A DNA stretch of 64,000 nucleotides from sequence record OR896837.1; one strand, 5' to 3'. The stretch is from Escherichia phage vB_Eco_mar004NP2. The notes beneath the pieces are model-generated. The model had not been told where the DNA came from. It saw only the letters and a program-made list of their open reading frames with translations, and ran no database searches. The translations under genes and the position numbers were made by a program. How positions within the stretch are numbered: position 1 is the stretch's first letter; every line of letters starts with the position of its first letter. This document shows, one piece after another, positions 16,141-64,000 of the stretch.

Positions 16141-16147
16141 AATTGTT

Positions 16148-17190: not shown

Positions 17191-17216
17191 AGCATATTTC
17201 TCGTGCTAGTTTAATT

Positions 17217-28853: not shown

Positions 28854-28920
28854 TGATTTTCCTCTTTCTCACTATTTCAGGAATATTATAGCAAATCTGG
28901 TAGCGATTAGCAAGTAAAAT

Positions 28921-28951
28921 TTCAAAGAAAAAGGAGACCCGAAGATCTCCT
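28921..28951 (-). terminator. hairpin/attenuator between nrdA and nrdB
   Basis: AGGAGA-loop-TCTCCT hairpin with T-rich flanks on both strands. Confidence 0.4.
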
Positions 28952-28959
28952 TGTTTTTA

Positions 28960-32408: not shown

Positions 32409-32481
32409 AAATAACACTCCTATAGTGTACTTCGCTAACAGAGGATCAACAAAAAGATCTTGTTTATCAACTTACAAATAT

Positions 32482-32510
32482 ATTATACCAATATATACAG
32501 TAAAAAGCAA
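32482..32510 (-). promoter_or_regulatory. sigma70-like promoter reading leftward toward phoH
   Basis: Reverse complement gives TTGCTT, 17-bp spacer, TATAAT. Confidence 0.45.
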
Positions 32511-32622
32511 CTACAATTTTAAATAAGCCTATGATATTGCATTTAAATAAAAAATTTGCTTGCTTTTAACGTGAGATGTGTGATACTAGATAATCATTTT
32601 ATATCGCGTGTACGAGTGCGTG

Positions 32623-32651
32623 ATTATACAATTTTTAATAGAGATTGGCAA
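32623..32651 (-). promoter_or_regulatory. second leftward sigma70-like promoter
   Basis: Reverse complement TTGCCA, 17 bp, TATAAT. Confidence 0.4.
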
Positions 32652-32702
32652 ATAAAATTTTTTGACTCAGATCATGTTACAGAACTTTATAGTAAAATAT
32701 TG

Positions 32703-32731
32703 TTGACATCTGCCCTCGAATGAGTTATAAT
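32703..32731 (+). promoter_or_regulatory. consensus sigma70 promoter for nrdD
   Basis: TTGACA, 17-bp spacer, TATAAT, then GGAGAG RBS and ATG at 32761. Confidence 0.65.
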
Positions 32732-32760
32732 AGTAGTCTTAGTTATAGAAGGAGAGTATA

Positions 32761-34635: not shown

Positions 34636-34642
34636 GCTAATC

Positions 34643-34679
34643 AGCCGGGTTGCTAGTCGACCTGGCTTTTATTTTATTT
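34643..34679 (+). terminator. rho-independent terminator after nrdD
   Basis: GC hairpin (AGCCGGG...CCTGGCT) followed by TTTTATTTTATTT. Confidence 0.5.
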
Positions 34680-34706
34680 GCTTTCAGCCAAAAATTTATG
34701 TATAAT
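34678..34706 (+). promoter_or_regulatory. sigma70-like promoter
   Basis: TTGCTT, 17 bp, TATAAT, followed by the conserved ATAAATTTGAGAGGAG leader. Confidence 0.55.
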
Positions 34707-34734
34707 TGATTTATAAATTTGAGAGGAGAAAGCT

Positions 34735-34947
34735 ATGAGAGTTCACAAGGTAGATAAAGAACGTATCTATTTTATTATGGATTCTGGGGCGTATGGTTCC
34801 ATTCTCCGTGGGGATATAGCTAAATTATGTTTAGTAAATACTTGGATGGACGAAGGGAAGATTGATCCTAGGGTGGGATTGTGCTTATCTGGGCCCGCCC
34901 TTTATATTGCTAGTGCAGAAATTGAAATGTTTGAGGAACAAGAATGA
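34735..34947 (+). CDS. hypothetical protein (70 aa)
   Basis: ORF with RBS GAGAGGAG. Confidence 0.45.
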   Translation: MRVHKVDKERIYFIMDSGAYGSILRGDIAKLCLVNTWMDEGKIDPRVGLCLSGPALYIASAEIEMFEEQE

Positions 34948-35147
34948 AGAACGTAAAACATCTTAAATATCGCTTAATTTACAACGGACGTATGGAAACA
35001 GAAGACCTGGCCCAGTTAGCTATTAATTCTAATGAGGTTACAGTGCGTGCGCTGGCAATTGAAAAGTTGCGTGCTTCTTATGAAAATCGTGTTATGGAAC
35101 TAGAGGAGAAACTTTATGGCATTCTCGAAGCCGATGCTACCAGATAA
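34944..35147 (+). CDS. hypothetical protein (67 aa)
   Basis: ATGA-coupled ORF. Confidence 0.4.
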   Translation: MKNVKHLKYRLIYNGRMETEDLAQLAINSNEVTVRALAIEKLRASYENRVMELEEKLYGILEADATR

Positions 35148-35337
35148 GGGTTTAAATGCCGCTTTGGAAAACGCATTAATGCAGCATTGGGAAACTGGCT
35201 ATAAGGATGGTGTTGAATCCTGCGCTAATATGCTAGAAGTTATTGCTAATACCTTAATGGAGAAAGGCAATAAAGAATTAGCTGAGCTATTAGACAGTAT
35301 TGGGCAAAACTTCAGAGAACAGGTGGAAAATGCGTAG
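35116..35337 (+). CDS. hypothetical protein (73 aa)
   Basis: ORF. Confidence 0.4.
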   Translation: MAFSKPMLPDKGLNAALENALMQHWETGYKDGVESCANMLEVIANTLMEKGNKELAELLDSIGQNFREQVENA

Positions 35338-36148
35338 ATTAATTATTATTAGCGGTGCGGGTTTGAGTGTTGAAAGTGGTGTACGAGCTTTTCGTACTGA
35401 TACTGCTAGTGGTAAAGCACTGTGGGATGATTATGATCTAGAAGAAGTATGTAATATTCATGCCTTTCGTAGTAATTTTTACCATAAAACCCATATGTTT
35501 TACAACAAACGTCGTGAAGAGCTAAAAACTGTTGAACCCAATCTTGCACATTTGCGTATTGGTGAATGGTATAAACAATATCCAGGTCAGGTAGTAAACT
35601 TGACTACCAACGTTGATGACCTTATTGAGCGTGCTGGCGTTCCACATAGTGACATTCTGCACATTCACGGATATTTAAAAGAGGTTATTGTAGCTGATAG
35701 CTACAATAGTAGCAATAAACGGATTATTGATGTAGGGTACAATTCTATTGATCCAGATGATTATAAATGGGTTAAACCTAATGTAATCTTCTTTGGGGAG
35801 CATGCTCCAGCGTATGCAGAAATGTACAATATTTTTGATGGTATTACCAGTCAAGATATGATCATTGTGGTTGGTTGCTCTAACCAAGTAATTAACTTCT
35901 ACTGGGAATTATTTCCTGTTCTTAATTTGACTGCTGCGAAACTTATGGTTGTTAACTACTATGATAGTGCCCTCGCAGCGGAACCGGGCTATCAAGGTAT
36001 GACTCGTAGTGAGATGTACCAGCTGGAAGAACGTGGTATCCCTTACTGGAGTAAAGGTGCGGTAGATGCTTTCAACGACCCTGATTTTATTGCTCGTGTA
36101 GAAGCCCATTTAGAGGGTAGACCTTATGTGTCGAGAAGCAAGAAATAA
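35330..36148 (+). CDS. Sir2-family (sirtuin-like) NAD-binding protein
   Basis: GAGLSVESGVRAFR, NVDDLIERAG, HIHG, FFGE motifs; no Zn-binding Cys tetrad visible; start set at ATG 35330. Confidence 0.65.
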   Translation: MRRLIIISGAGLSVESGVRAFRTDTASGKALWDDYDLEEVCNIHAFRSNFYHKTHMFYNKRREELKTVEPNLAHLRIGEWYKQYPGQVVNLTTNVDDLIERAGVPHSDILHIHGYLKEVIVADSYNSSNKRIIDVGYNSIDPDDYKWVKPNVIFFGEHAPAYAEMYNIFDGITSQDMIIVVGCSNQVINFYWELFPVLNLTAAKLMVVNYYDSALAAEPGYQGMTRSEMYQLEERGIPYWSKGAVDAFNDPDFIARVEAHLEGRPYVSRSKK

Positions 36149-36240
36149 TGAATGGGATATTTTTATAGCTTAGTCTGGCACTTGGTGTTATATATATGTT
36201 GATACGGTTGAGTATGATACGTTCTTAGAAAGGAACAAAA

Positions 36241-36747
36241 ATGGAAATAAGTAATACTCCAATTATTTTTCTAGACATTGATGGGGTGCTCAATTCGAGC
36301 ATCTCCCATCATCATGCACCTGATAATGAAAAGATTTTCTTTGGAAGTGACTGGGTTTTCAAACCGCTTCTCAAGGCTTTTCAGGATTTTATTCGTCCTT
36401 CTCCGATAATGATTGTTGGAGTATCCTCATGGTTCTCTGTTAGGAATGAGATGGAGAACGTTCAGATTATGACCGGATTAGGTCTTATCGATCGTTTTCT
36501 TGGTACAACTGATTTTACTGGGGGTGGGCTATCTAGAGGTAATTCTGTTCTCCGTTTCGTTGAAAAGCATAAGCTCAAACATTGGTGTGTGCTTGATGAT
36601 GCTGGTGCTACGATGTATCAGTATCCAACGGTTATAGTCAACGGTAGGACTGGGATAAATCTTCAAGATTTAAAAGCTGTTAGCTATATGCTAGAATTTA
36701 GCCCAGATATTGAAATGTGTAAATCCTTACAACAATTTAAGGTGTAA
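36241..36747 (+). CDS. HAD-superfamily phosphatase (nucleotidase-like)
   Basis: N-terminal FLDIDGVLN (DxDG) motif. Confidence 0.55.
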   Translation: MEISNTPIIFLDIDGVLNSSISHHHAPDNEKIFFGSDWVFKPLLKAFQDFIRPSPIMIVGVSSWFSVRNEMENVQIMTGLGLIDRFLGTTDFTGGGLSRGNSVLRFVEKHKLKHWCVLDDAGATMYQYPTVIVNGRTGINLQDLKAVSYMLEFSPDIEMCKSLQQFKV

Positions 36748-38199: not shown

Positions 38200-40989
38200 G
38201 TGTTTTCAATCCTACAAGGTCATGCAGGATTTCATCGCGATTTAGCCACAGGCAATTGGCGAGAAGTTAAAGCAGAAGATTATCTTTTTGCTAAAAGATT
38301 TTCCTCAAAGCATCCTGAAGGTAAACCAGCTTCAATGCCCTTCAAGTTTGATGTAATTGACGAAGTTGATCCTCAAACCCTAGTAGAAATGCTTCCTCTT
38401 ATGAGACGTTTAACGTCTGACCCTCATATCGTTGCGGTACGAGGTCGATGTCTTGCACCTAAAAATAATGTGCGGCGTAAGAATGGCAACTTTAATGTAT
38501 CTAACCCAAGTCATATAATTGCAATGGATGTGGATGGTATTGTAGATACAGGTGGTTGTAACAAGTTTGATCTTGTTGGCATGGCTCGACATATTATTAG
38601 AATGTTAAATAGTATTAGTGAGGATATGTTTCCTCTTGATGCAGGGTTTATCGCTCATGCATCGTCTTCGGCTGGGCTAAAACCAGGTATCCGAATGCAC
38701 TTAATACTAGAATCTAATGTTAAAGTAACTCAGGGTCAAATCAAATTCTTATTTACATCTATCAACGAAAGTAGTAGACAAAAGTATGGCTTTGATATTG
38801 CCGACTTAGCTTATTACTCTTCCGTACAGCTCCATTATTTTGCAGATCCGTTATTTACCGATGGTATAGTAGATCCGTTTAAAGAGGAGGGTGCTTCACG
38901 TCTGGTATTTGTTAAGGGTTCTAAAGTAAATTTACCCAATAATCTGGTTGACTATGAAACAACTAGAGGTGAGTTTAAAGAAGAGTTCTACTCTTTACTA
39001 GACCAAATTAAGGGTAAAAAAGCTGCCTCTGATAAAGTAGAAGAAACCATCAGCGAACTAGAAGAAGCTGAGGATGGAGTGTATCTACGTATTATTCCTA
39101 AACTCTATCACAGGGCTTTAGAGGATGGTGTTGATTTTGCATGGCTAGAAAAAGAAATCCGTCCAGCCTTATCAGAATATATTGCAACTAAAGATAATAG
39201 TCGTAATATTCAAGACTACTTTAATAATGGTCGTAAACAGGCTCTAAAAGCATTTGTTAATAATTCTAAACGTTATATACCGGATGTTTTAAAAGGTATT
39301 CCACTCAAAAAGCTAGAAACTAACTCTTTAGAGACTGATAACTTCTTGAAATTAAATACTGTGCCACCAGAAGGTTATATGACTTTTGTAAAAGCGAGTC
39401 TAGGTACAGGTAAAACTACAGCGGTTGTGCGTTGGTTAGATTCAGGAGTTATTAAAGGTAATTTCTTAGCAATTACCAATACTCGAGCACTGGTATCTTC
39501 CAATGCTAAGAAATTTAGTGCAGGACAATATGATAAGTCTGTAGATATGCTTAATTTTAAGCGTGGTGCTATTGACCGTATGTCCACAACTATTCACTCT
39601 TTGCATAAGTTCAAGAGTTTTATTGGTCAAATTGATGCAATCTTTATCGATGAATGTGATGCAGTAATGAACGACCTATTATTCGCCCCGGTTGTTAAAC
39701 AACGTCGTGAATGTATTCAGGTTCTTCGGGATATTCTTGCAACTGCAAAAATCATTATATTATCAGATGGTGATATTAGTGCAGAAACAATTGAAGCATA
39801 TGGTTCTTTGATCGAGTTTGATAAACCGGTTGCATTTTATAATCATCACCGTAAAATGCTGTCAAAAGCTCATGCTTATGAGTTTCCTGATGAATCCAGT
39901 ATTTGGGTTGCACTTCAGACTTCTCTAGAGATGGGTGAGAAATCTATTCTGGTATCTGATTGTGGCCCTGATGAGCTGAATGAGAAGGGTATGGCATTAC
40001 GTCGTAATACGGGTGCGTTAGTTAAGGAAATCCACTCAAATTCTACGTCTGATGTGGATATTAGACGTATTCTGGATTACACAACTAATGAGCTGATTGA
40101 TCAACAAATTGATTGCTTATTATGTAGTCCATCCGTAACGAGTGGAGTTGACTTCAACTATTTTGATAACGTATTCGTTATTACTAGAACCAGTAACCAA
40201 GCGCCAAACATGCGTTTTCAAGCAATCAGGCGCGACCGTGGTGCTCAGAATATCTATTATTTTATTGATAAATCTACGAGTGGATTCTCTGCAGGTTCTG
40301 AACAATATAATATTGATGAGGGCTGGCTGGAGTTAGCACAGCAATTATATGCACGTCGTAGAGAGCTGGAATCTAGAAATTATACTAGTACTTTACGTTA
40401 TTACTTGCTTGATCAGGGTGCAACTATTGATATTTTCAGCGAAAGCTGGGGAACTATTGAAGGTGCAGGGAAAGAATATATGGAAGAGCGAATCAAAGCT
40501 ATTCTACATTCAACTCCTGATTATTGTGCTCCACGTCATGCGGATGCGTATGAAGCTAAACTACTTCTTGTTCGCTATTATCATCTTGAGTCTATTAAAG
40601 ATGTAACAGTTGAGCATGTTGAACAATATATCAAGGATAAACCTAATGATCGAGCGGCATTCTTCCATAAAATGCACGAGATGTTTTGGGAAGATATTAA
40701 GAAGTGTTCAAACGTCACTATCAAACCATTCATAGAAGCTCTGAAAGGTAAGAAGAAGGACTTCTTCCTTAAAACAGGTCAGAGTGCTAACCCAAAATAT
40801 GCTAGAATGTATCTTGGTATGATGGGTATTGGTAAGGATATGAACACTGAAAATATTGTAGACTGGTACAGAACCTATTGTAAAATCGAGTGTATGCCAA
40901 TTCCTTATAAGTTTATGACTGATGAGGAGAAACATATGCATGATGAAGCAATGGCAGAGCTAGGTGCTAGAAATGACAGTGAAGAATAA
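38200..40989 (+). CDS. replication initiation / origin-binding-type protein with P-loop NTPase domain
   Basis: Walker A SLGTGKTT and Walker B IFIDECD in a 929-aa protein at the head of the replication module; start set at GTG 38200 after ACAGGAG RBS. Confidence 0.5.
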   Translation: MFSILQGHAGFHRDLATGNWREVKAEDYLFAKRFSSKHPEGKPASMPFKFDVIDEVDPQTLVEMLPLMRRLTSDPHIVAVRGRCLAPKNNVRRKNGNFNVSNPSHIIAMDVDGIVDTGGCNKFDLVGMARHIIRMLNSISEDMFPLDAGFIAHASSSAGLKPGIRMHLILESNVKVTQGQIKFLFTSINESSRQKYGFDIADLAYYSSVQLHYFADPLFTDGIVDPFKEEGASRLVFVKGSKVNLPNNLVDYETTRGEFKEEFYSLLDQIKGKKAASDKVEETISELEEAEDGVYLRIIPKLYHRALEDGVDFAWLEKEIRPALSEYIATKDNSRNIQDYFNNGRKQALKAFVNNSKRYIPDVLKGIPLKKLETNSLETDNFLKLNTVPPEGYMTFVKASLGTGKTTAVVRWLDSGVIKGNFLAITNTRALVSSNAKKFSAGQYDKSVDMLNFKRGAIDRMSTTIHSLHKFKSFIGQIDAIFIDECDAVMNDLLFAPVVKQRRECIQVLRDILATAKIIILSDGDISAETIEAYGSLIEFDKPVAFYNHHRKMLSKAHAYEFPDESSIWVALQTSLEMGEKSILVSDCGPDELNEKGMALRRNTGALVKEIHSNSTSDVDIRRILDYTTNELIDQQIDCLLCSPSVTSGVDFNYFDNVFVITRTSNQAPNMRFQAIRRDRGAQNIYYFIDKSTSGFSAGSEQYNIDEGWLELAQQLYARRRELESRNYTSTLRYYLLDQGATIDIFSESWGTIEGAGKEYMEERIKAILHSTPDYCAPRHADAYEAKLLLVRYYHLESIKDVTVEHVEQYIKDKPNDRAAFFHKMHEMFWEDIKKCSNVTIKPFIEALKGKKKDFFLKTGQSANPKYARMYLGMMGIGKDMNTENIVDWYRTYCKIECMPIPYKFMTDEEKHMHDEAMAELGARNDSEE

Positions 40990-45486: not shown

Positions 45487-46246
45487 ACTGAACTGGAACG
45501 TAGAAGGTGTAACCGAGTCTCTGAAAGCAAAAGCCACTGCTCTGGGTGTTGCTGTAATCTCTCAAGAACAAGTAGCTGCTATCGCTGCTGAACTGGCTGC
45601 TGAAACTGGCAAAGACGTTACCGCTCGCTCTGTTGGCTCTAAGCTGCGTAAAGAAGGTTTTGAAGTACAAAAAGCTAACGAAGTACAGAAATCCCCGTGG
45701 ACTCCTGAGCAGGAAGCTGAACTGGTTGATTTCCTGAACGCTCATGCTGGTCAGTATACCTATGCTGAAATCGCTGCTGCTGTAGCTGGTGGTCAATTTG
45801 GTGCTAAGCAGGTACAGGGTAAGATCCTGAGTCTGGAAATGACCGCCTCTGTTAAACCAACTGAAAAAGCTGCTGCTGTTCGTTCCTTCACTCCTGATGA
45901 AGAAACCGATTTTGTTAATCAGGTTGTTGCTGGGGCTACTATTGAAGCTATCGCTGCTCACTTCGGTCGTAATATCAAGCAGATCCGTGGTAAAGCTCTG
46001 AGCCTGCTTCGTGAAGGTCGTATCGCTGCTATGCCGGTACAGGAAACTTCAAGTGCTAAAACTCGTGAAGATCTGTTAGAAGGTCTGGATCTGGCTAACA
46101 TGACTGTTGCTGAGATCGCTGAGAAAACTGGTAAATCTGAGCGCGGTGTTAAATCTATGCTGTCTCGTCGTGGTCTAGTTGCTAAGGACTATGATGGTGC
46201 TGCTAAGCGTGCTAAACTGGATGCAAAAGCTGCGGCTGCTGAATAA
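45479..46246 (+). CDS. Ala-rich protein with four internal repeats, putative abundant DNA-binding protein
   Basis: Repeated ~50-aa units ending in basic helices; codon usage strongly biased to host-preferred codons unlike neighbours. Confidence 0.45.
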   Translation: MSKLNWNVEGVTESLKAKATALGVAVISQEQVAAIAAELAAETGKDVTARSVGSKLRKEGFEVQKANEVQKSPWTPEQEAELVDFLNAHAGQYTYAEIAAAVAGGQFGAKQVQGKILSLEMTASVKPTEKAAAVRSFTPDEETDFVNQVVAGATIEAIAAHFGRNIKQIRGKALSLLREGRIAAMPVQETSSAKTREDLLEGLDLANMTVAEIAEKTGKSERGVKSMLSRRGLVAKDYDGAAKRAKLDAKAAAAE

Positions 46247-46264
46247 TCTGGTAAATTAAACCTA

Positions 46265-46297
46265 AGGGGAGGGGGCTATGCTCCTTCCCCTTTTTTG
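46265..46297 (+). terminator. rho-independent terminator
   Basis: GGGGAGGGGG...CCTTCCCC hairpin + TTTTTT. Confidence 0.5.
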
Positions 46298-46329
46298 CAT
46301 TTAGAAGGCACGAAAGCGTGCAAAGGAGA

Positions 46330-47802
46330 ATGACCTTGTTTAACGTGCAAGCTGTAGTGTTGAAGATGCTTCTTGCTTCTGAACAGAAGCAAATAGCATT
46401 GGAAACATTCTCAAAACTGCATAAAGATCATTTTAATGACGCTTTCTCCTCAATTTACCAAGCCGTCCAGAATTATTATAAAAAATATAACACAATGCCG
46501 TCCATTGACGCACTTATGCTTGAAGCTAATAGGAACGCCCGCCTTTCTCAAGCTCTAGTCGTCTTAGCTAACACTCAAATTCCAGAAGTGAGCATGGAAC
46601 AGGCACTTGAAGTCCTAGAGGCCGAATATACACAAGATTTATTCCTAAAGCTTCTAGAAACAGATGTGCTTCAAGATTTAACAATGCTGGATCAGGGAGA
46701 AATTCTCAACCGAGTTGCCTCCCTTCACTTAAAATTAGAAGAGAAAGTAACGAATACTGGAAAAGTATTCAACGCAGATAACATGCGTATTTTCCAGAGA
46801 GAAGAAGATACCAAACTGAACTTAATCGCTCTTGGTATTTGTAATGAGTTCGACGCTCAAATTGGTTTAGCTCGCACAGAAACGTTACTGCTTGGTGGTT
46901 GGCGTGGTACTGGTAAATCCATTATCTGTTCAAACATACAGGTTCAGCAATATTTGAATGGAGATATTGCTCCATACTTCTCAATTGAGATGAAAGAACA
47001 TGAAGTATTTAGACGTAATCTAGCCATGTTAGCTGGTGTATCAGCATTAGCAATGCGTAATAATACTCTAGAAGGTGCAGCTCTGTTGAGATTGGCCAGA
47101 ACTAGAGCTAGGATGTTCAACGGGGGTGAGGAGCTTTTCGATAACTTCGTTAAACAGTATACAATGGCTAAGATGAGTGATTTCTACGATATGGAGAGTA
47201 AGCTAATAGAAGGATATGAGCTACATACTCCTATGATTATTGTTTATGACCCTGAGCTGTCCATTACAACAGTTGACGTAGAATTAAATAAATTAGTTGC
47301 TAGATACGGAGATAAAGTTACAGTAGCTTTACTGGACTATATTAACCAAACCCGACTTCCAGACTCTAAAACCATTGATATGTATGACTGGAAAGAACAG
47401 ATGGTTGTCAGCTCGTCTTTCAAATCTATCTGCCAGAAACATAACGTGGCTGGTGTAGCTCCTTACCAGATTGATCAAGATGGTAGAACACGTATGTCAA
47501 AGGGGATTCTTGATTCCGCAGACATGGCTGCTAATCTTAATGCTGCAAAAGCTGATAATGGTCAAGGTGCTATTATGTTTGACTTCGTTAAGACCCGTTC
47601 TTCTGATAGCGTGAAGTTTATGCCTAAAATGAACTGGGAAACCCTGCGGATGGATAACACTATCAACCTAGCAATGGAAGATATATCTCAAATGGAAGCT
47701 GAGTTCGTTATCCCTATTGAGAAGGATAAGCCGGCTCAATCTAAACGTGCTAAGAAAGACAAAGCTGAAAATTCAACAGGTGAACAGGCCAGCGATATAT
47801 GA
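46330..47802 (+). CDS. RecA-fold replicative helicase-like ATPase (DnaB-like)
   Basis: Walker A GGWRGTGKS; directly upstream of and coupled to the primase; start uncertain (ATG 46330 or TTG 46336). Confidence 0.5.
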   Translation: MTLFNVQAVVLKMLLASEQKQIALETFSKLHKDHFNDAFSSIYQAVQNYYKKYNTMPSIDALMLEANRNARLSQALVVLANTQIPEVSMEQALEVLEAEYTQDLFLKLLETDVLQDLTMLDQGEILNRVASLHLKLEEKVTNTGKVFNADNMRIFQREEDTKLNLIALGICNEFDAQIGLARTETLLLGGWRGTGKSIICSNIQVQQYLNGDIAPYFSIEMKEHEVFRRNLAMLAGVSALAMRNNTLEGAALLRLARTRARMFNGGEELFDNFVKQYTMAKMSDFYDMESKLIEGYELHTPMIIVYDPELSITTVDVELNKLVARYGDKVTVALLDYINQTRLPDSKTIDMYDWKEQMVVSSSFKSICQKHNVAGVAPYQIDQDGRTRMSKGILDSADMAANLNAAKADNGQGAIMFDFVKTRSSDSVKFMPKMNWETLRMDNTINLAMEDISQMEAEFVIPIEKDKPAQSKRAKKDKAENSTGEQASDI

Positions 47803-48689
47803 GTAGAATAACAGAACTACTTGATCTGAAAGGCATTGAGTATAAAGACACAGGTGGGGACATCCTCATCTGTTGTCTCAATCCAGATCATGACGATAAA
47901 CATCCAAGTTTGCGTATTGATCCTGAAACAGGTATTATGCACTGCTTGAGTTGTGGCTTCGGTAAAGGTATACCGAGCATTTACCATTATTTTAATGAGA
48001 CTCAGTACCGACAGTCTCCAAGACTATCGCAGGTACGTAAAAAGATTTCAGAGATTAGGAATGGATCTACGAATCTTGCAATTCCTGAATCTGCTTACCT
48101 TTTCGAAGGTGATTTCCGAGGTATAAGTTCTAAGACCTTGAAGAAATATTTTGCTTTCCAACACCAAGCAGATTGGGAGGGCAGAATTGTATTCCCAATC
48201 ACAGATGCTGTTGGACGCAATATCCTATTTTTGGGTCGTTCTATAAACAGTTCTGCCCCTCCTAAATACTTAGTAAAACCAAAACAAGTTTCACCACCGA
48301 TTTTCCCTGTACGATATAATACTCCAGTTCTTATTCTAGTTGAAGGTATCTTTGATATGCTGAACCTAGAGGATAATGGTATAGACTATGCTTCTTGCTG
48401 CTTTGGTACACATCAGTTTACTTCGGATAACATTGCAGATAAGTTCAGTCCTTATATTATTGCTGGTGTAAAAGTTGTTGTTATCTTACTAGATAATGAT
48501 GCTTCTGGTAATAAAACTGCACAAGCATTGGCTAAGCTAATTCGTACAAAAACGCGTTTAACACCTGTAGTTGCTAACTTTCTCCTACCTGAAGGCAAAG
48601 ATCCAGGTGATTTAAACAAAGATGAAATTGATATGTTAGCAAAACGTATTGAAATTTTAGTTGCTGAATCGCTTAAAGATTTGGTATAA
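47799..48689 (+). CDS. DNA primase (DnaG-like)
   Basis: Zn-finger CLNPDHDDKHPSLRIDPETGIMHCLSCG; Toprim EGIFDMLNL...DNDASG. Confidence 0.75.
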   Translation: MSRITELLDLKGIEYKDTGGDILICCLNPDHDDKHPSLRIDPETGIMHCLSCGFGKGIPSIYHYFNETQYRQSPRLSQVRKKISEIRNGSTNLAIPESAYLFEGDFRGISSKTLKKYFAFQHQADWEGRIVFPITDAVGRNILFLGRSINSSAPPKYLVKPKQVSPPIFPVRYNTPVLILVEGIFDMLNLEDNGIDYASCCFGTHQFTSDNIADKFSPYIIAGVKVVVILLDNDASGNKTAQALAKLIRTKTRLTPVVANFLLPEGKDPGDLNKDEIDMLAKRIEILVAESLKDLV

Positions 48690-57653: not shown

Positions 57654-58136
57654 ATGGCTGTAGATAGTAGAGAGAAAGGTAAACGTGGTGAATATCAGGT
57701 AAGAGATATTCTACGCGAGCGTACAGGTCTTGAGTGGGAACGTGTTCCTGGCTCTGGTGCTTTTGGCCAGAGCCACGGACTGAAAGGTGACATCTACCTT
57801 CCACCACAAAGCGGACACATTAGTAAATACTGCTTCGAAGTTAAGTGGTATAAAGATGATAATATATCAAGTAATTTATTTAATGTCGGTGAATCCACTC
57901 TAGAGAAGTGGTGGCAGCAATGCTCACGTGAAGGTGAGCAGATGAACTCCAAGTCTGCATTAATATTCAAAAAAGACAGAGGACAGTGGTTAATAGCTTT
58001 GGATAGCGCAGACCCGATGGTTGACAACTTAATGAGTCGTACCCATATGGTGTTAAATAAGAAAGACATGGAAATCGTAATTGGTTTATTTGAACCGTGG
58101 CTACATCATGCATCTGTTGAGGACTTAATTAAATAA
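57654..58136 (+). CDS. PD-(D/E)xK-type nuclease-like protein (resolvase-like)
   Basis: GDIY...EVK motif pattern; position between SbcC-like gene and flap endonuclease. Confidence 0.4.
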   Translation: MAVDSREKGKRGEYQVRDILRERTGLEWERVPGSGAFGQSHGLKGDIYLPPQSGHISKYCFEVKWYKDDNISSNLFNVGESTLEKWWQQCSREGEQMNSKSALIFKKDRGQWLIALDSADPMVDNLMSRTHMVLNKKDMEIVIGLFEPWLHHASVEDLIK

Positions 58137-59011
58137 TGAGTAAATCCTGGGGAAAATTTATTGAAGAAGAGGAAGCTGAAATGGCTTCCCGTCGTAACCT
58201 AATGATTGTTGATGGAACTAACTTAGGCTTCCGCTTCAAACATAACAATAGTAAAAAACCATTTGCCTCAAGTTATGTTTCCACTATTCAGTCTCTAGCA
58301 AAATCTTATTCTGCTAGAACTACAATAGTTTTAGGGGATAAAGGAAAGTCTGCATTCCGCCTAGAGCATCTTCCAGAGTATAAAGGGAATCGAGATGAGA
58401 AATACTCTCAGCGTACGGAAGAGGAAAAAGCGTTAGATGAGCAGTTTTTCGAGTATTTGAAAGATGCTTTCGAACTATGTGAAACTACATTCCCAACCTT
58501 CACTATTCGTGGTGTAGAAGCAGATGATATGGCAGCTTATATTGTTAAGCTGATTGGGCATCTATATGATCATGTTTGGCTAATTTCTACCGATGGTGAC
58601 TGGGATACTTTATTAACTGATAAAGTTTCTCGCTTCTCTTTTACAACACGTCGTGAATATCATCTTCGTGATATGTATGAGCACCATAATGTTGACGATG
58701 TAGAGCAGTTTATCTCTCTGAAAGCAATTATGGGTGATTTAGGGGATAATATCCGTGGTGTTGAAGGTATTGGGGCAAAACGCGGGTATAATATTATTCG
58801 TGAATTTGGTAACGTTCTGGATATTATTGATCAGCTTCCACTACCTGGAAAACAGAAATATATACAGAATTTAAATGCTTCGGAAGAATTGCTTTATCGA
58901 AACCTAATTTTAGTTGATTTACCTACCTACTGTGTGGACGCTATTGCTGCTGTAGGTCAAGATGTATTAGATAAGTTTACAAAAGATATTTTGGAGATTG
59001 CAGAACAATGA
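58136..59011 (+). CDS. 5'-3' exonuclease / flap endonuclease
   Basis: FEN signatures MIVDGTNLGFR, EADD, STDGD, GD.GDN.RGVEGIG. Confidence 0.85.
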   Translation: MSKSWGKFIEEEEAEMASRRNLMIVDGTNLGFRFKHNNSKKPFASSYVSTIQSLAKSYSARTTIVLGDKGKSAFRLEHLPEYKGNRDEKYSQRTEEEKALDEQFFEYLKDAFELCETTFPTFTIRGVEADDMAAYIVKLIGHLYDHVWLISTDGDWDTLLTDKVSRFSFTTRREYHLRDMYEHHNVDDVEQFISLKAIMGDLGDNIRGVEGIGAKRGYNIIREFGNVLDIIDQLPLPGKQKYIQNLNASEELLYRNLILVDLPTYCVDAIAAVGQDVLDKFTKDILEIAEQ

Positions 59012-59454
59012 TTAAAATTAAATTAACTCATCCAGATTGTATGCCTAAGATTGGTTCCGAAGATGCCGCAGGTATGGATCTGCGAGCATTCTTTGGTACA
59101 AACCCTGCTGCAGATTTACGTGCTATTGCGCCAGGCAAATCCCTAATGATTGACACCGGTGTCGCGGTAGAAATTCCGCGAGGTTGGTTCGGTTTGGTGG
59201 TTCCTCGTAGCTCTTTAGGTAAGCGCTATTTGATGATTGCAAACACCGCAGGGGTGATCGACTCAGACTATCGTGGTACTATTAAGATGAACCTCTATAA
59301 TTACGGTTCTGAAATGCAAACTCTGGAGAATTTCGAGAGACTTTGTCAGCTAGTGGTATTGCCACATTACTCAACTCATAATTTTGAAATCGTTGATGAG
59401 TTAGAAGAGACTGTACGTGGAGAAGGAGGATTTGGAAGTTCAGGAAGTAAGTAA
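59008..59454 (+). CDS. dut: dUTPase
   Basis: Motifs AGMDLRA, GVIDSDYRG, GGFGSSG. Confidence 0.9.
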   Translation: MIKIKLTHPDCMPKIGSEDAAGMDLRAFFGTNPAADLRAIAPGKSLMIDTGVAVEIPRGWFGLVVPRSSLGKRYLMIANTAGVIDSDYRGTIKMNLYNYGSEMQTLENFERLCQLVVLPHYSTHNFEIVDELEETVRGEGGFGSSGSK

Positions 59455-59478
59455 TCTACATATAAAATAAATAATAAA

Positions 59479-59513
59479 CCCCAGTGGATTTTGTCCACTG
59501 GGATTTTCTTTTA
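59479..59513. terminator. bidirectional rho-independent terminator between early and late genes
   Basis: CCCAGTGGA-TTTTG-TCCACTGGG hairpin flanked by A-rich and T-rich runs. Confidence 0.65.
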
Positions 59514-61283
59514 TTGTGATACTAATTGTACCTTTAATTGCTCAAGCTCTTTCTCTAGATCTTCAATCCGTTTAATAAGATCTTGCACAACATGCATAGT
59601 GTCAAGAAGCATTGGAGTTGTATCTAATTCCTTTTGCTCCTGCTCTATTCCGTCATCATTATAAAATTTTCTAGTTTTTACATAAAGTGGTTCTATAGTC
59701 TCTACTTGCTGAGCAATAACCCCACGTCGGACACGAGATTTTTCATCGTTATTATATACAAAGGATTGGAATTCTAATCCTTTTAATACCTCGATGGACT
59801 TAGTTGCGTCTATAGCCTTAATATCATGCTTTAAGCGAGAATCAGATACAGCATTTAATTGCAAAGTATAGGTTGCTGAAGCACCTGGCCACCAAGAATA
59901 AAAATAAATACTATTATTATTCGGCTGAATTTTTAAACGCACACCAAATTTATTATCATCATCTCCCGCTACCTGCCAACAAGAATCTGCAAATGAGCCT
60001 AAGTCATTATGAATTAATCCAAAATGTGCAGATGTCTTATACCCTGCGGAAGAAGACTGGGAACCGCTCAATATACTATTAAAGTTAAATGTACTACCTA
60101 TATTGACCTCGTTCTGAGAAAGAGTACCTTGTACCCAGCCAGTCTGAGACCACGCCATGCCAGTAACTAATCTAGCTTTAAAACGATCCGTTACAAAATC
60201 CCCATTTATCTACAAGCTGGGCGGAATTCGATTTACCGGTAGATTTATTGTCTATTAGTAGTTCAGTAGAGTAGGTGCCACCAATAGTAGCTTTAGCTCG
60301 TAGTGTACTTACAGCCTCACTACTAGTACCTACTTTATACTCAGATAGTACACTCCCGCCATAAACAGTAGTACCAGTATTAGGTTTGACAGCATCACCA
60401 CTAATAACACTCCACGAAGTCTTTGCAGCCACGAACCCACCAGAAGCACGGATTACCCAGACACCTATAAAGCTGTTTGGAATAATAGTACCTTTTATTC
60501 CATAACGCCCATAAACAGGGTCCGCTAAGTTTGCATCAAAACTAAATCCGTATTGGTTATCAGGATTAACTACGGCGAATGATTTAGATGCACCTCCAGG
60601 AGCGGCACCTAAGCCGTTTTCACCACCAATCGCCCCAATAAGACCAAATCTAGATGAATATCTATTAAGCGCTTCTTCATATGCACCAGCAATAGCGCCA
60701 GGAAAACTACCAGTAATATTGGGTGCTGCAGCTTCTGATATTGAACCAGCTTGACCAGCATCCCCCCCCCCCCCACCGTCACCACGAGCGAATAACCCTT
60801 TGATTGAATTTAGTTGCACACCATTACGATCTGGGACGCGGAAAGTAGTGGTACCATCTCCCGTAGAATATTTCCCACGTTGTCCTACATCTGCTAACCA
60901 AACTGAATCATCTATAGCTCCAACCATTTGTGCATACGCCCAAAGTTCAGGCCAGTCAGCCCTGTTAAGAAGCTGCCCATCAGAAACTACCTCATAAGGT
61001 TGAATATACGCACGGCTATCTCGAAGATGAAAATCCCCACCCCGTAGTTCATAACACCATTCATTGTGGGTCCTACTGTGCCAGTATTAAGTTTGTTCTC
61101 CACCCAACGCTTAGTTGCGGCATCATAGTCACTAACAGGATCTCCAGCAAGAGGGGTAGATCCAATAGGACGCACATTTAGCCATGCTGCACGGTCTGCT
61201 AAGTCACTCAGGTTATTATTTTTATTAAGTGACTCATTTTTAAGTTTTGTAATATCCGTAGGAATTACTGTTTTAGTTACCAT
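59511..61283 (-). pseudogene. tail fiber protein with C-terminal intramolecular chaperone/autoprotease domain, split into three ORFs by two frame breaks
   Basis: N-terminus MVTKTVIP...PLAGDPVSDYDAATKRWV; open frame continues in another phase (HNEWCYELRGGDF...); C-terminal ORF carries the SDSRLK autocleavage-type motif. Confidence 0.55.
60762..60774. repeat. 13-nt C/G homopolymer inside the tail fiber coding sequence
   Basis: Read directly; encodes the Gly run GDGGGGGD on the minus strand. Confidence 0.9.
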
Positions 61284-61292
61284 TATAAAACC

Positions 61293-61571
61293 TTATGCCC
61301 ATACTCTAAGAGGCTGTTCTAGCTGAACTATAAAAGGCTCGAAGGATTCGTAAGTAAAGGATTCATCAAGAATCCTTACATTAATATAATACCCTTCATT
61401 ACGGATGCATCTAGGTTCCTCATCACCTAGCGGAGAGATTTCAGTATAAGTATATCCAATTTCGTCAAGCATTATTTGGTTTTGCAAATTTTCATTAGTA
61501 TCCCACTCTATTTTTAAGAGAAAATCTTTATATGCTGATTTATCCGTGAATTTTAGGATTATATCTCTCAT
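61293..61571 (-). CDS. hypothetical small protein between the two fiber genes
   Basis: ATGA overlap with upstream fiber gene stop. Confidence 0.4.
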   Translation of the reverse strand: MRDIILKFTDKSAYKDFLLKIEWDTNENLQNQIMLDEIGYTYTEISPLGDEEPRCIRNEGYYINVRILDESFTYESFEPFIVQLEQPLRVWA

Positions 61572-63625
61572 ACATACTCCTTCATTTGTCTATCAGTTAG
61601 TTCCTTATGCCAGATTCTAAAGTTTCTAACGTGCCCGAAAAGATGACGTTCGCCCCTAGTTGTTTGTCCTCCAATCCTTATAGTAGCCGTTGATTGTATG
61701 TATCTCCATTCCGTTTTTGTTTCGCTTGATATTCTGGCATTACTTACACAGCAAGTATTGTAATCACTCTTTACTCTCATTCCCATGATCATCTTTTTTA
61801 GTTTTGCATTCTCGTAAACCCTTCTGTTTGATTTACCTATATCGCAATAAGGGAAACCATCATTATCGCCTTCGGCAGATCCGAAAGCAAGAATAATAGC
61901 CGCTTCGGTTTGATGACCTCTGGTATCAAAAACACGTGGCGCTGCACTTGGCGTTATACTCCAGTTTTTATGAGCTTCCACAAGTACTGTAAACGGCAAA
62001 TTGTAAAGGTTGTTTTTTATTGGTAATGTGACCATATCGCTTGCCCGTGTTACTGGAGTCTCTTCTGTAATAATAAACGATGAAGCGCACGCCCCGCCTT
62101 CAACTTGAGGGGTAGCTACCTGTAAGTACTCTCCACCAGAATAAGTGCCAGGTGAAACAGGTGGAGCAATTTGGATCTGAGAGCTAACCATATTATCAAT
62201 AGCTTCAGATTGATATGTAACCTCGAAATAAATCCATCCATTAGATTCTTTCTCCGCTCGGGCGGTTATTCTTGCAGCCCCTACTTCCGTTTTTCTAATG
62301 GACATATCTGTTATATTAAGATATGCATCTGCTAGATAAAAATATGCGGATCCGTCATATCTTTCAAATCTTATACGACATTGTATATTAGCACTATCGC
62401 TTTTTACACGACATGATGTTGTAACATACTTTTCAGTTCCGGTAACATCGACACCTCTTCCTCCTGAAATCGCAGCGATATTCATTGCCGTATTTGTCCC
62501 AATTTTTTCGTCCTTTATTTGAAACCGCCCATAAGTAAATCCAAACTCATCAACACCACTTTCTGTTATAGTTACACTTGTTGTAGCTTCCCACTTAGAT
62601 GGCGTAAGTGAGTTAAGATGATAGTTAGTTCTTTGCCCCTCAATGAGCAAACCATCCTTTTCAAATCTAGGTTCATTAATCCCCGCAACAGTTAATACAC
62701 CTGATTTATTAATATATGTCGCAGTTGATGCACGTGTAAAGCTAACAATCTTGTCACTGGGCAGTGTTATTTCCTCATCACCGACTGTTATTTTTTTTTT
62801 ATAGTCTGGCGCAAAGCCGGTGATCATATCTAGAGAATCGTTAAACGGTATCCATACATCTGGAAGAGGTTGAATGTCGGGGGTAGAATTAGCAGCAGCT
62901 TCTGATCTATCAGCCTCAGTTTTTGAACGATCGGCTTCAGTTTTAGCAGTATTAGCACTATTAGCAGCATTAGTAGCTTGTTTTCCTGCTTCAGTAGCAG
63001 AATTAGCAGCACTAGTTGCAGAATTAGCAGCTTGGTTTTTTAGCGTGGTAGTTTCTGTTATCGCGCTATTCTTAATGCCTTGTGTGTCTGTTTTTAACTG
63101 CGCAACATCTGCCTTTATAGCTGTTGTCTCTGTTACAGCACTGTTTTTAATGGCCTGAGTATCTGATTTTAGCTGCTCAACATCTGATTTTAAGCCTTGA
63201 ATAGTAGTTACTGACTGACTAGCTGAAGTTGCGGAACTAGCTGCGTTATTCTCACTAGCTTTGGCTTTAGTCTCACTAGCTTTGGCTTTAGTCTCACTAG
63301 CTTTTGCATTAGTCTCGGATACTTTAGCAGCGGATGCAGATGTTGCAGCTTGTCTAGCGAATGTTTCTGCTTCATCCCTAAAACCTTTAGAATTGGCAGC
63401 AGACGCAGCAGCATTAGTCTCACTAATTTTAGCGTTAGTTTCGCTAATTTTTGCAGCCGCAGCAGATTTAGCAGCAGCCTCTATAGAAGATACTAACTCA
63501 TTAGCAGTAATAGAGCTAATAGAATTTCCAAGAGTTACTGTGTATCTAGGAAATTTACTAGCAGTAGCTTTAGTATCATCAATATTTAATATTTGTTGTA
63601 CAATAATCTTAGTAGTTATTGCCAT
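61568..63625 (-). CDS. L-shaped/side tail fiber protein (685 aa)
   Basis: N-terminus [18 protein letters not shown]..., repetitive SETNAKASETKAKASE coiled-coil repeats typical of side tail fibers. Confidence 0.7.
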   Translation of the reverse strand: MAITTKIIVQQILNIDDTKATASKFPRYTVTLGNSISSITANELVSSIEAAAKSAAAAKISETNAKISETNAAASAANSKGFRDEAETFARQAATSASAAKVSETNAKASETKAKASETKAKASENNAASSATSASQSVTTIQGLKSDVEQLKSDTQAIKNSAVTETTAIKADVAQLKTDTQGIKNSAITETTTLKNQAANSATSAANSATEAGKQATNAANSANTAKTEADRSKTEADRSEAAANSTPDIQPLPDVWIPFNDSLDMITGFAPDYKKKITVGDEEITLPSDKIVSFTRASTATYINKSGVLTVAGINEPRFEKDGLLIEGQRTNYHLNSLTPSKWEATTSVTITESGVDEFGFTYGRFQIKDEKIGTNTAMNIAAISGGRGVDVTGTEKYVTTSCRVKSDSANIQCRIRFERYDGSAYFYLADAYLNITDMSIRKTEVGAARITARAEKESNGWIYFEVTYQSEAIDNMVSSQIQIAPPVSPGTYSGGEYLQVATPQVEGGACASSFIITEETPVTRASDMVTLPIKNNLYNLPFTVLVEAHKNWSITPSAAPRVFDTRGHQTEAAIILAFGSAEGDNDGFPYCDIGKSNRRVYENAKLKKMIMGMRVKSDYNTCCVSNARISSETKTEWRYIQSTATIRIGGQTTRGERHLFGHVRNFRIWHKELTDRQMKEYV
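62791..62800. repeat. 10-nt T/A homopolymer inside the tail fiber coding sequence
   Basis: Read directly; encodes KKK on the minus strand. Confidence 0.9.
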
Positions 63626-63987
63626 TATCTAGTTACCCCATCACTGATAAATACTTTACCCTCCATTATACGAAAAGAGCTAATAGCTGATCCTATGACA
63701 TCTCGTGTCATAATTATATCATAGTATCCTGCAAAACGTTGGCGAGGGTTATACTTATCTCTCTCTTTGGTAGCTTTTTCACCAATATTATCTACCGCCT
63801 CTACAGGTAAACTTATAGCTATAGCACCTTGAGCAGCATCAATAATTTTAGTAGTAAAAGATGCCAAAGTTTCCGCGTTCTCATCAAGCCCCGCCTTTAT
63901 AGTACCCCTTAGGGAATACCCTGTTAAGTTAACAGGGGTATTTGTAGGTGGATAAGTACTATCATCAACATCTAAGAATTGCATCAT
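63625..63987 (-). CDS. hypothetical late (virion-associated?) protein, possibly truncated by window end
   Basis: ORF directly upstream of the fiber gene; its 5' end lies within 13 bp of the window edge. Confidence 0.35.
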
Positions 63988-64000
63988 TAGACCATAAGGT

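What the first reader, a model, noticed from the sequence alone, without database searches (positions are those of the whole stretch)
59511..63625. Tail-fiber locus: one fiber gene broken into three frames, plus a separate upstream fiber gene
The minus-strand region encodes a 685-aa fiber protein, a 92-aa ORF, then a second fiber gene whose N-terminus (60987..61283), middle (60178..60927) and C-terminal chaperone domain (59511..60158) sit in three different frames. The open frame upstream of the middle ORF's Met still reads as fiber sequence. Either the receptor-binding fiber is inactivated, the sequence has indel errors, or expression needs recoding.
Basis: partly seen in the sequence, partly recalled or inferred. 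Interest (0 to 1): 0.6.

Follow-up and report, generated by a model that had tools for sequence, protein, structure and literature searches.

The report
Frameshift-inactivated side tail fiber gene
In this T5-like coliphage, isolated on a laboratory E. coli strain that lacks O-antigen, one of the two lateral tail-fibre genes has been knocked out by two genuine single-base frameshifts. This is an ordinary loss of a dispensable host-range gene, not a sequencing error or a recoding signal.

Summary
The five minus-strand ORFs are at the stated coordinates. The 98-, 249- and 215-aa ORFs are pieces of one 1,773-nt fibre gene, which is a single 574-590-aa ORF in nine related Tequintavirus genomes.

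The N- and C-terminal pieces share a frame, and only the middle piece is shifted. The cause is two window-private changes: G5 to G4 at 61035-61038 and A2 to A3 at 60205-60207.

The window is Citizen Phage Library isolate CPL00229 (OR896837). It was isolated on rough E. coli BW25113 and sequenced with Illumina. An independent Logan assembly of run SRR27112525 gives a 5,498-bp contig identical to window 57777-63274, with both frameshifts. They are therefore in the reads, and real mutations are the best explanation (about 0.8). Assembly or sequencing error is about 0.12, and recoding about 0.02.

Lateral fibres are known to be dispensable on laboratory strains, so the finding itself is ordinary.

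More interesting in passing: the only homopolymers of 7 nt or more in the window are G13 in this gene and A10 in the upstream fibre gene. The G tract varies among relatives (G7, G10, G13, frameshifting G6, and an inferred G8). It is a candidate contingency locus.

The parts
63625..64000 (-). 3' part of the LtfC-like collar gene (lateral-fibre attachment). It runs off the window end.
   Evidence: Pfam PF23926 LtfC, E 3e-10. The frame is open to the window edge. Relatives annotate it as 'collar tail protein for L-shaped tail fibre attachment'.
61568..63625 (-). Upstream lateral fibre gene, 685 aa and intact. It has an LtfA/pb1-like N-terminus, a heptad-repeat shaft and a GTA-spike-fibre-like C-terminal domain. 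It has no S74 chaperone.
   Evidence: phrog_1419 'tail protein', E 3e-237. Residues 1-237 match DT57C LtfA 1-229, E 5e-21. NCBIfam NF048003 GTA_spike_fiber at aa 327-528. There are no Pfam hits. The orthologue in mar004NP2 is MS-confirmed as structural.
63427..63478 (-). Junction of a 333-nt (111-aa) shortening of the heptad-repeat shaft relative to SPLA5b, mar004NP2 and PMBT29 (796 aa). It lies between direct 'AAAAK-SETNAKISETN' repeats.
   Evidence: The independent Logan contig stops at 63274 and does not cover this junction, so an assembly collapse cannot be excluded here.
62791..62800 (-). A10 tract on the coding strand (T10 on +). It is in frame and adds one Lys compared with the A7 of relatives.
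61293..61571 (-). Conserved 92-aa ORF between the two fibre genes. Its function is unknown. It has a strong AAGGAG ribosome-binding site and overlaps the upstream stop by 4 nt.
   Evidence: phrog_1361, E 2e-32, full length. A 279-nt ORF is present at this position in all ten relatives examined. RBS shown.
59511..61283 (-). Second lateral fibre gene (ltfB-type branch or distal fibre), 1,773 nt, disrupted by two frameshifts.
   Evidence: It is one ORF of 574-590 aa in nine relatives. phrog_6921 'tail fiber', E 5e-180. It matches DT57C LtfA 526-874 and 914-1072, E 3e-135. The mar004NP2 paper calls it an ltfB orthologue.
60987..61283 (-). Fragment 1 (98 aa): 83 native N-terminal residues followed by 15 out-of-frame residues and a stop. 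This is the only fragment with a plausible ribosome-binding site.
61185..61190 (-). (GCA)2 where relatives have (GCA)3. This is an in-frame loss of one Ala.
61035..61038 (-). Frameshift 1: G4 where all relatives examined have G5 (a -1 change). A stop follows 17 codons later.
   Evidence: The intact G5 allele is also present in an IMG/VR contig and a gut-metagenome contig.
60178..60927 (-). Fragment 2 (249 aa), in the shifted frame. Its Met is an internal Met of the intact protein (AQ-M-VGAI), and it has no ribosome-binding site.
60762..60774 (-). G13 tract on the coding strand (C13 on +), encoding Gly5. It is in frame locally. It is the only G/C run longer than 5 nt in the window.
60205..60207 (-). 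Frameshift 2: A3 where relatives have A2 (a +1 change). It returns reading to the original frame. The middle ORF stops 27 nt later.
59511..60158 (-). Fragment 3 (215 aa), in the original frame. It contains the C-terminal Peptidase_S74 intramolecular chaperone (about 59688-59846). It has no ribosome-binding site.
   Evidence: Pfam PF13884, E 3e-12, at aa 480-532 of the intact homologue. PF13884 is also listed for the 215-aa product. RBS check.

Best explanation
The region is the lateral (L-shaped) tail-fibre module of a Tequintavirus. The gene order is: LtfC collar gene, a 685-aa proximal fibre that docks on the collar, a conserved 92-aa gene, and a 590-aa ltfB-type fibre with a C-terminal self-cleaving S74 chaperone.

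In this isolate (CPL00229, GenBank OR896837) the last gene is a pseudogene. A 1-nt deletion in a G5 run and a 1-nt insertion in an A2 run, 832 nt apart, break it. Translation from the native start ends after 98 codons. The two downstream pieces have no translation signals of their own.

Shown here: the indels exist, they are private to this genome, the gene is continuous in relatives, and an independent assembly of the reads carries both indels.

Inferred: the mutations are tolerated because this fibre only helps adsorption to O-antigen. It is therefore dispensable on the rough K-12 host BW25113 used for isolation, and perhaps on this lineage's natural host. The second hit was neutral once the first had occurred.
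For: 1. Relatives. Alignment to SPLA5b, mar004NP2, PMBT29 and KS_S14 shows exactly two frame-changing differences, and both are private to the window. Nine homologues have a single ORF, with perfectly conserved protein sequence across both break points.

2. Source. The three fragments are exact matches to NCBI WWD13551-3 on a 98,746-bp contig. The supplement of PMC10893117 lists CPL00229 with E. coli BW25113 as host, 98,746 bp, OR896837, and mar004NP2 as nearest relative.

3. Method. The genomes were sequenced on Illumina NovaSeq 2x150 and assembled with Shovill.

4. Independent assembly. Logan contig SRR27112525_10 (5,498 bp) is an exact substring of window 57777..63274. It includes both frameshifts, the G13 tract, the A10 tract and the GCA deletion.

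5. Selection filter. Of the six private 1-nt indels in 44 kb, three are intergenic or at a doubtful 5' end (53559, 46296, 42250). Two are in this gene. One is in a non-core SPFH-type gene (18946). None disrupts a replication or nucleotide-metabolism gene.

6. Mutation pattern. The private branch looks like recent unfiltered spontaneous mutation. About 46 scattered substitutions show roughly 3 nonsynonymous per synonymous change and a bias from G:C to A:T or T:A. With them come 9 small indels, about one per five substitutions.

7. Dispensability. Inactivating LtfB in DT571/2 does not affect growth on laboratory strains (PMC4728585).
Against: Two independent frameshifts with no private substitution in the same 1.77-kb gene is an unusual combination. 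The expectation is about 1.6 substitutions, so P(0) is about 0.2.

The window has more private 1-nt indels per substitution than PMBT29 or SPLA5b (6 versus 0). Taken alone, that pattern would suggest sequence error.

I could not inspect reads, so the allele frequencies in the phage stock are unknown. I also could not confirm directly that SRR27112525 is an Illumina run of this isolate; I inferred it from the exact 5.5-kb identity and from the paper's methods.
Confidence: 0.8

Rival explanations
1. The two single-base indels are sequencing or assembly errors, and the phage really has an intact 590-aa gene.
For: Both indels sit in mononucleotide runs. The window carries an excess of private 1-nt indels compared with its closest relatives (6 versus 0 in PMBT29 and SPLA5b). 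Frameshift errors in T5-group ltf loci have been reported before: the DT57C structure paper suggests a frameshift error in the T5 reference sequence of the LtfC gene.
Against: The genome was produced from Illumina 2x150 reads, and that platform rarely miscalls G4/G5 or A2/A3 at consensus level. An independent k-mer assembly of the reads (Logan) is base-for-base identical over 5,498 bp, including both sites. The same holds for the other broken gene, whose fragments are also in Logan. The private indels avoid essential genes, which random error would not do. The in-frame +3 changes (A7 to A10, and G13 versus G7/G10) are not typical error products.
Confidence: 0.12
2. The gene is expressed as one protein through recoding: a -1 ribosomal or transcriptional slip at the first site and a +1 slip at the second.
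For: The net length is a multiple of three. The N- and C-terminal parts are in the same frame.
Against: Two events of opposite sign would be needed in one mRNA. Neither site has a canonical slippery motif: the sequences are ACGGGGTGGGGATTTT and GATAAATGGGG. Every close relative encodes the same protein without any shift, so no conserved recoding signal exists. A stop follows the first site after only 17 codons.
Confidence: 0.02
3. The stock is a mixed population. The assembled consensus shows broken alleles, while a sub-population keeps or regains an intact gene. This would be phase-variation-like heterogeneity driven by slippage in the fibre genes.
For: The locus contains the only long homopolymers of the genome (G13, A10). 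The G tract differs in length among near-identical phages, with out-of-frame lengths G6 and an inferred G8. Phage contingency loci have been described (PMC12633550).
Against: The two breaks in this window are not at the long tracts but at G4 and A3, which slip rarely. Restoring function would need two independent reversions. A single clean Logan contig runs through the region.
Confidence: 0.05
4. The three ORFs are three independent small genes.
For: Each begins with ATG, and GenBank annotates them as three 'tail fiber protein' CDSs.
Against: Fragments 2 and 3 have no ribosome-binding site. Their Met codons are internal residues of a single protein in all homologues. Fibre-like sequence continues upstream of the Met of fragment 2.
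Confidence: 0.01

Closest known systems
Branched lateral tail fibres LtfA/LtfB of T5-like phages DT57C and DT571/2 (Golomidova et al. 2016, PMC4728585; structure 8HQZ, PMC10713586)
   Same: The gene neighbourhood is the same: LtfC collar gene, fibre genes, then the convergent dut gene. The upstream protein shares the LtfA/pb1 N-terminus (residues 1-237 against 1-229). The broken gene shares a very close core with LtfA 526-874 and the S74 chaperone. LTFs bind O-antigen and are dispensable on laboratory strains.
   Different: Here the proximal protein ends in a GTA-head-spike-like domain and has no S74 chaperone. A conserved 92-aa gene separates the two fibre genes. The second gene resembles the distal half of DT57C LtfA, although the mar004NP2 paper called it an ltfB orthologue. 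In this isolate it is frameshifted.
Same locus in Escherichia phage vB_Eco_mar004NP2 (LR027384 / NC_048205), Salmonella phages SPLA5b and PMBT29
   Same: The region is 99.3-99.4% identical in DNA and has the same four-gene layout. The upstream protein is MS-confirmed as structural in mar004NP2.
   Different: In these relatives the second fibre gene is an intact 589-590-aa ORF, the upstream gene is 796 aa rather than 685 aa, and the tracts are A7 and G7 or G10.
E. coli phage KS_S14 (LC788706)
   Same: The same fibre gene is also split, and is annotated as two CDSs.
   Different: The break is at the poly-G tract (G6), not at the two sites mutated in the window.
Hypermutable poly-G tracts in receptor-binding genes of Campylobacter Fletchervirus phages, and the contingency loci of T2/T4 (Sorensen et al. 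2021 as cited in PMC12633550; Gomez, Barrick and Waters preprint)
   Same: A homopolymeric G tract lies inside a receptor-recognition gene. Its length differs between otherwise near-identical genomes and sometimes puts the gene out of frame.
   Different: No within-population variation or phenotype has been shown for this T5-like tract. The inactivation seen in this window did not occur at the tract.

Membership tests
T5-group lateral tail fibre module (LtfC + LtfA/pb1-type + S74-chaperone fibre) | An adjacent LtfC/p132 collar gene | tested here: met
   PF23926 LtfC, E 3e-10, on 63625..63987.
T5-group lateral tail fibre module (LtfC + LtfA/pb1-type + S74-chaperone fibre) | A proximal fibre with the conserved pb1/LtfA N-terminal collar-docking region | tested here: met
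   Residues 1-237 against DT57C LtfA 1-229, E 5e-21. Also phrog_24369 and phrog_5481 N-terminal matches.
T5-group lateral tail fibre module (LtfC + LtfA/pb1-type + S74-chaperone fibre) | A C-terminal Peptidase_S74 intramolecular chaperone on each fibre protein, as in T5 Ltf and in DT57C LtfA and LtfB | tested here: inconclusive
   It is present in the second gene (PF13884, E 3e-12). It is absent from the 685-aa protein, which instead carries NF048003 GTA_spike_fiber. The module is therefore a variant of the DT57C layout.
T5-group lateral tail fibre module (LtfC + LtfA/pb1-type + S74-chaperone fibre) | The second fibre is attached to the virion through the first one (branched fibre) | not testable with these tools
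   This needs electron microscopy or genetics. For mar004NP2 it has only been proposed.
Functional gene (intact ORF) | One uninterrupted reading frame from the native start to the S74 domain | tested here: not met
   There is a stop at 60987-60989, after 98 codons, and the frame is restored only after 60205.
Programmed ribosomal frameshifting | A slippery sequence at the shift site, and conservation of the shift in homologues | tested here: not met
   There is no X XXY YYZ motif or comparable signal. All nine homologues are in one frame.
Sequencing or assembly artefact | The change is not reproduced by an independent assembly of the reads, or the platform is prone to homopolymer errors | tested here: not met
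   The Logan contig is identical over 5,498 bp. The platform was Illumina NovaSeq. Read-level frequencies were not testable.
Phage contingency locus (hypermutable homopolymer in a receptor-recognition gene) | A long homopolymer inside the coding sequence, exceptional for the genome | tested here: met
   G13 and A10 are the only runs of 7 nt or more in the 64-kb window. The whole mar004NP2 genome has 3 such runs against 48 +/- 6 expected, and 2 of the 3 are in the fibre genes.
Phage contingency locus (hypermutable homopolymer in a receptor-recognition gene) | Tract-length polymorphism among near-identical genomes, including out-of-frame lengths | tested here: met
   G7 occurs five times, G10 once and G13 once. 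G6 occurs in KS_S14, where the gene is split. G8 is inferred from the N-terminus of P0013.
Phage contingency locus (hypermutable homopolymer in a receptor-recognition gene) | High-frequency reversible switching within one population, with a host-range phenotype | not testable with these tools
   This needs deep read counts and plating experiments.

The most novel reading that the evidence does not exclude
The two lateral-fibre genes of this Tequintavirus clade carry the genome's only long homopolymers: A7-A10 in the proximal fibre gene and G6-G13 in the ltfB-type gene. These tracts may act as contingency loci. Polymerase slippage would switch the O-antigen-binding fibre branch on and off, and change its Gly or Lys linker length, as a bet-hedging device for host range. 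CPL00229 would then be a lineage caught after the switchable gene had been lost for good.
Probability: 0.3. Interest if true: 0.6.

Novelty: already known. Interest (0 to 1): 0.25.

Why it matters
For annotation, the three 'tail fiber protein' CDSs in OR896837 should be one pseudogene. The host-range or therapy potential of CPL00229 should not be inferred from the intact fibre set of its namesake, mar004NP2.

For biology, this is one more natural example of a dispensable O-antigen-binding fibre being lost in a phage isolated on a rough K-12 host.

The side observation is the part worth testing. Long homopolymers are strongly depleted genome-wide, except in the two fibre genes, and the poly-G length varies between near-identical phages. 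This would extend the recently proposed idea of phage contingency loci to T5-like coliphages.

Tried and rejected
1. "Same phage resequenced." NCBI gives the window's proteins the name vB_Eco_mar004NP2, so I tested whether this was a second, error-prone record of that phage. It is not. There are 230 mismatches and several tRNA-region deletions across 61 kb. It is a different isolate filed under the same species name.

2. Long-read error. I expected the Citizen Phage Library genomes to be Nanopore-only. The paper's methods say Illumina.

3. Indel-to-substitution ratio as proof of error. The window has 6 private 1-nt indels, against 0 in PMBT29 and SPLA5b. However, PMBT29's substitutions are almost all in recombination patches. 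The window's scattered private mutations look like a recent spontaneous-mutation branch. The ratio is therefore not diagnostic.

4. A mutator phage. The DNA polymerase has a private P299S change. I did not pursue this, and there is no evidence for it beyond the longer private branch.

5. Looking up the contigs behind other truncated cluster members (P0013, P0015). I inferred G8 for P0013 from its N-terminal sequence instead.

6. Scans of public viral and metagenome contigs for the poly-G region. Each scan gave only one further locus, and both had G7.
Full report
**What is there**

- 685 aa at 61568..63625
- 92 aa at 61293..61571
- 98 aa at 60987..61283
- 249 aa at 60178..60927
- 215 aa at 59511..60158

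The neighbourhood is a typical T5-like phage. SbcCD-like genes, a RusA-like resolvase, a flap endonuclease and dUTPase lie on the plus strand and converge on the fibre genes. A gene for the LtfC collar protein runs off the window end.

The 685-aa protein has three parts. Its N-terminus matches DT57C LtfA residues 1-229. Its shaft is made of 21-nt (heptad) repeats. Its C-terminal domain matches NCBIfam GTA_spike_fiber. It has no S74 chaperone.

The 92-aa ORF belongs to a PHROG of unknown function. It is present between the two fibre genes in all ten relatives examined.

**The three small ORFs are one gene**

A megablast of 59400-61700 finds 85 phage records. Five of them are 99.3-99.4% identical: SPLA5b, the two mar004NP2 records, KS_S14 and PMBT29.

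In SPLA5b, mar004NP2 and PMBT29 the region after the 92-aa gene is a single CDS of 1,770-1,773 nt. The same is true, at 574-589 aa, in JLBYU40, IrisVonRoten, Baret, T5_ev219, phC17 and Es2.

A base-level alignment shows that the window differs from these genomes in this gene by four indels only, all private to the window:
- loss of one GCA repeat (in frame)
- G5 to G4 at 61035-61038
- a longer poly-G tract, G13 against G7 or G10 (in frame)
- A2 to A3 at 60205-60207

With one G restored and one A removed, the 1,773 nt translate into a 590-aa protein. It differs from the SPLA5b protein by one missing Ala, one extra Gly and one Val-to-Gly change. Protein sequence around both break points is invariant in all nine homologues.

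The intact protein carries Peptidase_S74 at residues 480-532. It matches DT57C LtfA residues 526-874 and 914-1072 at E 3e-135. The paper describing mar004NP2 called it an ltfB orthologue and proposed that one of the two upstream genes supplies the other fibre component.

**Correction to the observation**

The pieces lie in two frames, not three. The N- and C-terminal fragments share a frame, as expected for a -1 change followed by a +1 change.

Fragments 2 and 3 start at Met codons that are internal residues of the intact protein. Neither is preceded by a Shine-Dalgarno motif, unlike the 92-aa gene (AAGGAG) and fragment 1 (TAAGG).

**Real mutation or error?**

An exact look-up shows that the three fragments, the 685-aa protein and two fragments of another broken gene are NCBI proteins WWD13551-55 and WWD13486-87. 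They are named for 'Escherichia phage vB_Eco_mar004NP2' and sit on a 98,746-bp contig.

This is not the original mar004NP2 genome. Compared with NC_048205 the window has 230 mismatches and several deletions in the tRNA region over 61 kb.

The supplement of the Citizen Phage Library paper lists the matching isolate: CPL00229, host E. coli BW25113, nearest relative mar004NP2, 98,746 bp, OR896837. According to that paper the phage genomes were sequenced on Illumina NovaSeq (2x150), corrected with Tadpole and assembled with Shovill.

The Logan project's own assembly of run SRR27112525 contains a 5,498-bp contig carrying the same 98-, 249- and 215-aa ORFs. That contig is an exact substring of window 57777..63274. 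It includes both frameshifts, the G13 tract, the A10 tract and the GCA deletion. The indels are therefore in the reads. Illumina consensus errors at G4/G5 or A2/A3 are very unlikely.

**Pattern of private changes**

In a 44-kb four-genome alignment the window has 9 private small indels, 6 of them 1 nt long, and about 87 private substitutions.

About 41 of the substitutions form one patch at 46076-48516 that is almost entirely synonymous. This looks like a recombination tract. The other 46 or so are scattered. They run at about 3 nonsynonymous per synonymous change and are biased from G:C to A:T or T:A. That is the signature of recent spontaneous mutations not yet filtered by selection.

The six 1-nt indels fall as follows:
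- Two are intergenic (53559, 42250).
- One (46296) lies 18 nt inside the annotated 5' end of a helicase gene, in what looks like a terminator T-run.
- Two are in the ltfB-type gene.
- One (18946, A4 to A5) splits a 315-aa SPFH/band-7 gene of the tRNA region into 89 + 208 aa.

None disrupts a replication or nucleotide-metabolism gene. Random error would not spare those genes; real mutations filtered by viability would. I therefore put real inactivation at about 0.8, error at about 0.12, and recoding at about 0.02. Recoding would need two opposite shifts, has no slippery motif, and no relative needs it.

**Why the loss is tolerated (inferred)**

In DT571/2, inactivating LtfB did not change growth on laboratory strains or on O-antigen-deficient mutants (PMC4728585). 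CPL00229 was isolated and grown on BW25113, a K-12 derivative. From general knowledge, K-12 makes no O-antigen.

After the first frameshift the gene was already dead, so the second was neutral. Whether the mutations arose before or after isolation cannot be told from sequence.

**The wider locus in this isolate**

The upstream fibre gene stays open but is unusual in three ways:
- It is 111 aa shorter than in relatives. The loss is a deletion between direct repeats in the heptad array. The Logan contig does not cover this junction, so it may be an assembly collapse.
- It has A10 where relatives have A7, which adds one Lys.
- Its last 400 codons carry 9 private substitutions, all nonsynonymous, where the four relatives are identical to each other.

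The fibre module is about 9% of the compared sequence. It holds 5 of the 9 private small indels and about a quarter of the private nonsynonymous changes. This points to relaxed or changed selection on the whole module in this lineage.

**Homopolymer tracts**

In the 64-kb window the only homopolymers of 7 nt or more are the G13 tract (60762-60774) and the A10 tract (62791-62800).

In the matching 50-70 kb of SPLA5b, PMBT29 and mar004NP2, the same two sites are again the only runs of 7 nt or more. In KS_S14 only the A7 tract reaches 7 nt, because its G tract is G6.

The complete mar004NP2 genome has 3 such runs, where a first-order Markov model expects 48 +/- 6. Two of the three lie in the fibre genes.

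The G tract lengths found were:
- G7 in mar004NP2, PMBT29, phC17, an IMG/VR contig and a human-gut metagenome contig
- G10 in SPLA5b
- G13 in the window
- G6 in KS_S14, where the gene is split
- G8, inferred from a truncated Logan/ENA protein that starts MTVGGD

JLBYU40 encodes the same Gly residues with an interrupted tract, so the pure G run is not needed for coding.

This resembles the poly-G tracts in Fletchervirus receptor-binding genes and the contingency loci recently proposed for T2 and T4. Switching within a population has not been shown here.

**Verdict**

The explanation is ordinary. A dispensable host-range fibre gene was pseudogenised by two slippage mutations in an isolate from a rough laboratory host. 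The result is useful for annotation and for anyone considering this phage for therapy. The homopolymer observation is the part worth an experiment.

Noticed in passing
window 60762-60774: C13 on the plus strand (G13 on the coding strand) inside the broken fibre gene. It is the only G/C run longer than 5 nt in the window. The tract is G7, G10 or G6 in relatives, plus an inferred G8, and the G6 and G8 lengths are out of frame. It is a candidate contingency locus.
   Followed up: partly
window 62791-62800: T10 on the plus strand (A10 on the coding strand) in the upstream fibre gene, where relatives have A7. It is in frame and adds one Lys. Together with the G13 tract it is the only homopolymer of 7 nt or more in the window. 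From general knowledge, a run of this length can also provoke transcriptional slippage.
   Followed up: partly
NC_048205.1 whole genome (loci L016, L017, L021): Long homopolymers are strongly depleted. There are 3 runs of 7 nt or more against about 48 expected from a first-order Markov model. Two of the three lie in the two lateral-fibre genes.
   Followed up: yes
window 63427-63478 (upstream fibre gene): The heptad-repeat shaft is 111 aa (333 nt) shorter than in SPLA5b, mar004NP2 and PMBT29. The loss lies between direct repeats. KS_S14 is shorter still (557 aa). The independent Logan contig stops at 63274, so a short-read assembly collapse cannot be excluded.
   Followed up: partly
window 61656-62677 (C-terminal 400 codons of the 685-aa gene): Nine private substitutions are all nonsynonymous, several of them Gly to Glu. 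The four closest relatives are identical to each other at these sites. Some of the changes fall in the GTA-spike-fibre-like domain (aa 327-528). This suggests adaptive change or relaxed constraint.
   Followed up: partly
window 18255-19203: A 315-aa SPFH/band-7 gene (annotated 'lipoprotein') is intact in T5, DT57C, SPLA5b, PMBT29 and KS_S14. Here it is split into 89 + 208 aa by a private A4-to-A5 insertion at about 18946. Both fragments are also present in the Logan assembly.
   Followed up: partly
window 46076-48516: A dense patch of about 41 private substitutions, 38 synonymous and 3 nonsynonymous, in the replicative helicase/primase region. It looks like a recombination tract from an unsampled relative.
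   Followed up: partly
window 18000-62700 (scattered): Outside the patch, the private substitutions number 30 nonsynonymous, 9 synonymous and 7 intergenic. They are biased from G:C to A:T or T:A. This is the signature of a recent branch of unfiltered spontaneous mutations, about four times longer than in SPLA5b.
   Followed up: partly
window 50123: A private Pro299Ser change in the DNA polymerase, possibly in the N-terminal exonuclease part. I did not examine whether it relates to the longer private mutation branch.
   Followed up: no
window 12900-17330: Compared with mar004NP2 and SPLA5b, the tRNA region lacks several blocks (mar004NP2 27123-28395, 28507-30526, 32023-36554, 39413-39951).
   Followed up: no
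window 59470-59505: An inverted repeat (CCCAGTGGA...TCCACTGGG) flanked by A- and T-runs lies between the convergent fibre gene and dut. It is probably a bidirectional terminator.
   Followed up: no
GenBank OR896837 (source record): The record is filed under the organism name vB_Eco_mar004NP2, but it is a different isolate (CPL00229) with a different fibre status. The shared name invites confusion.
   Followed up: yes
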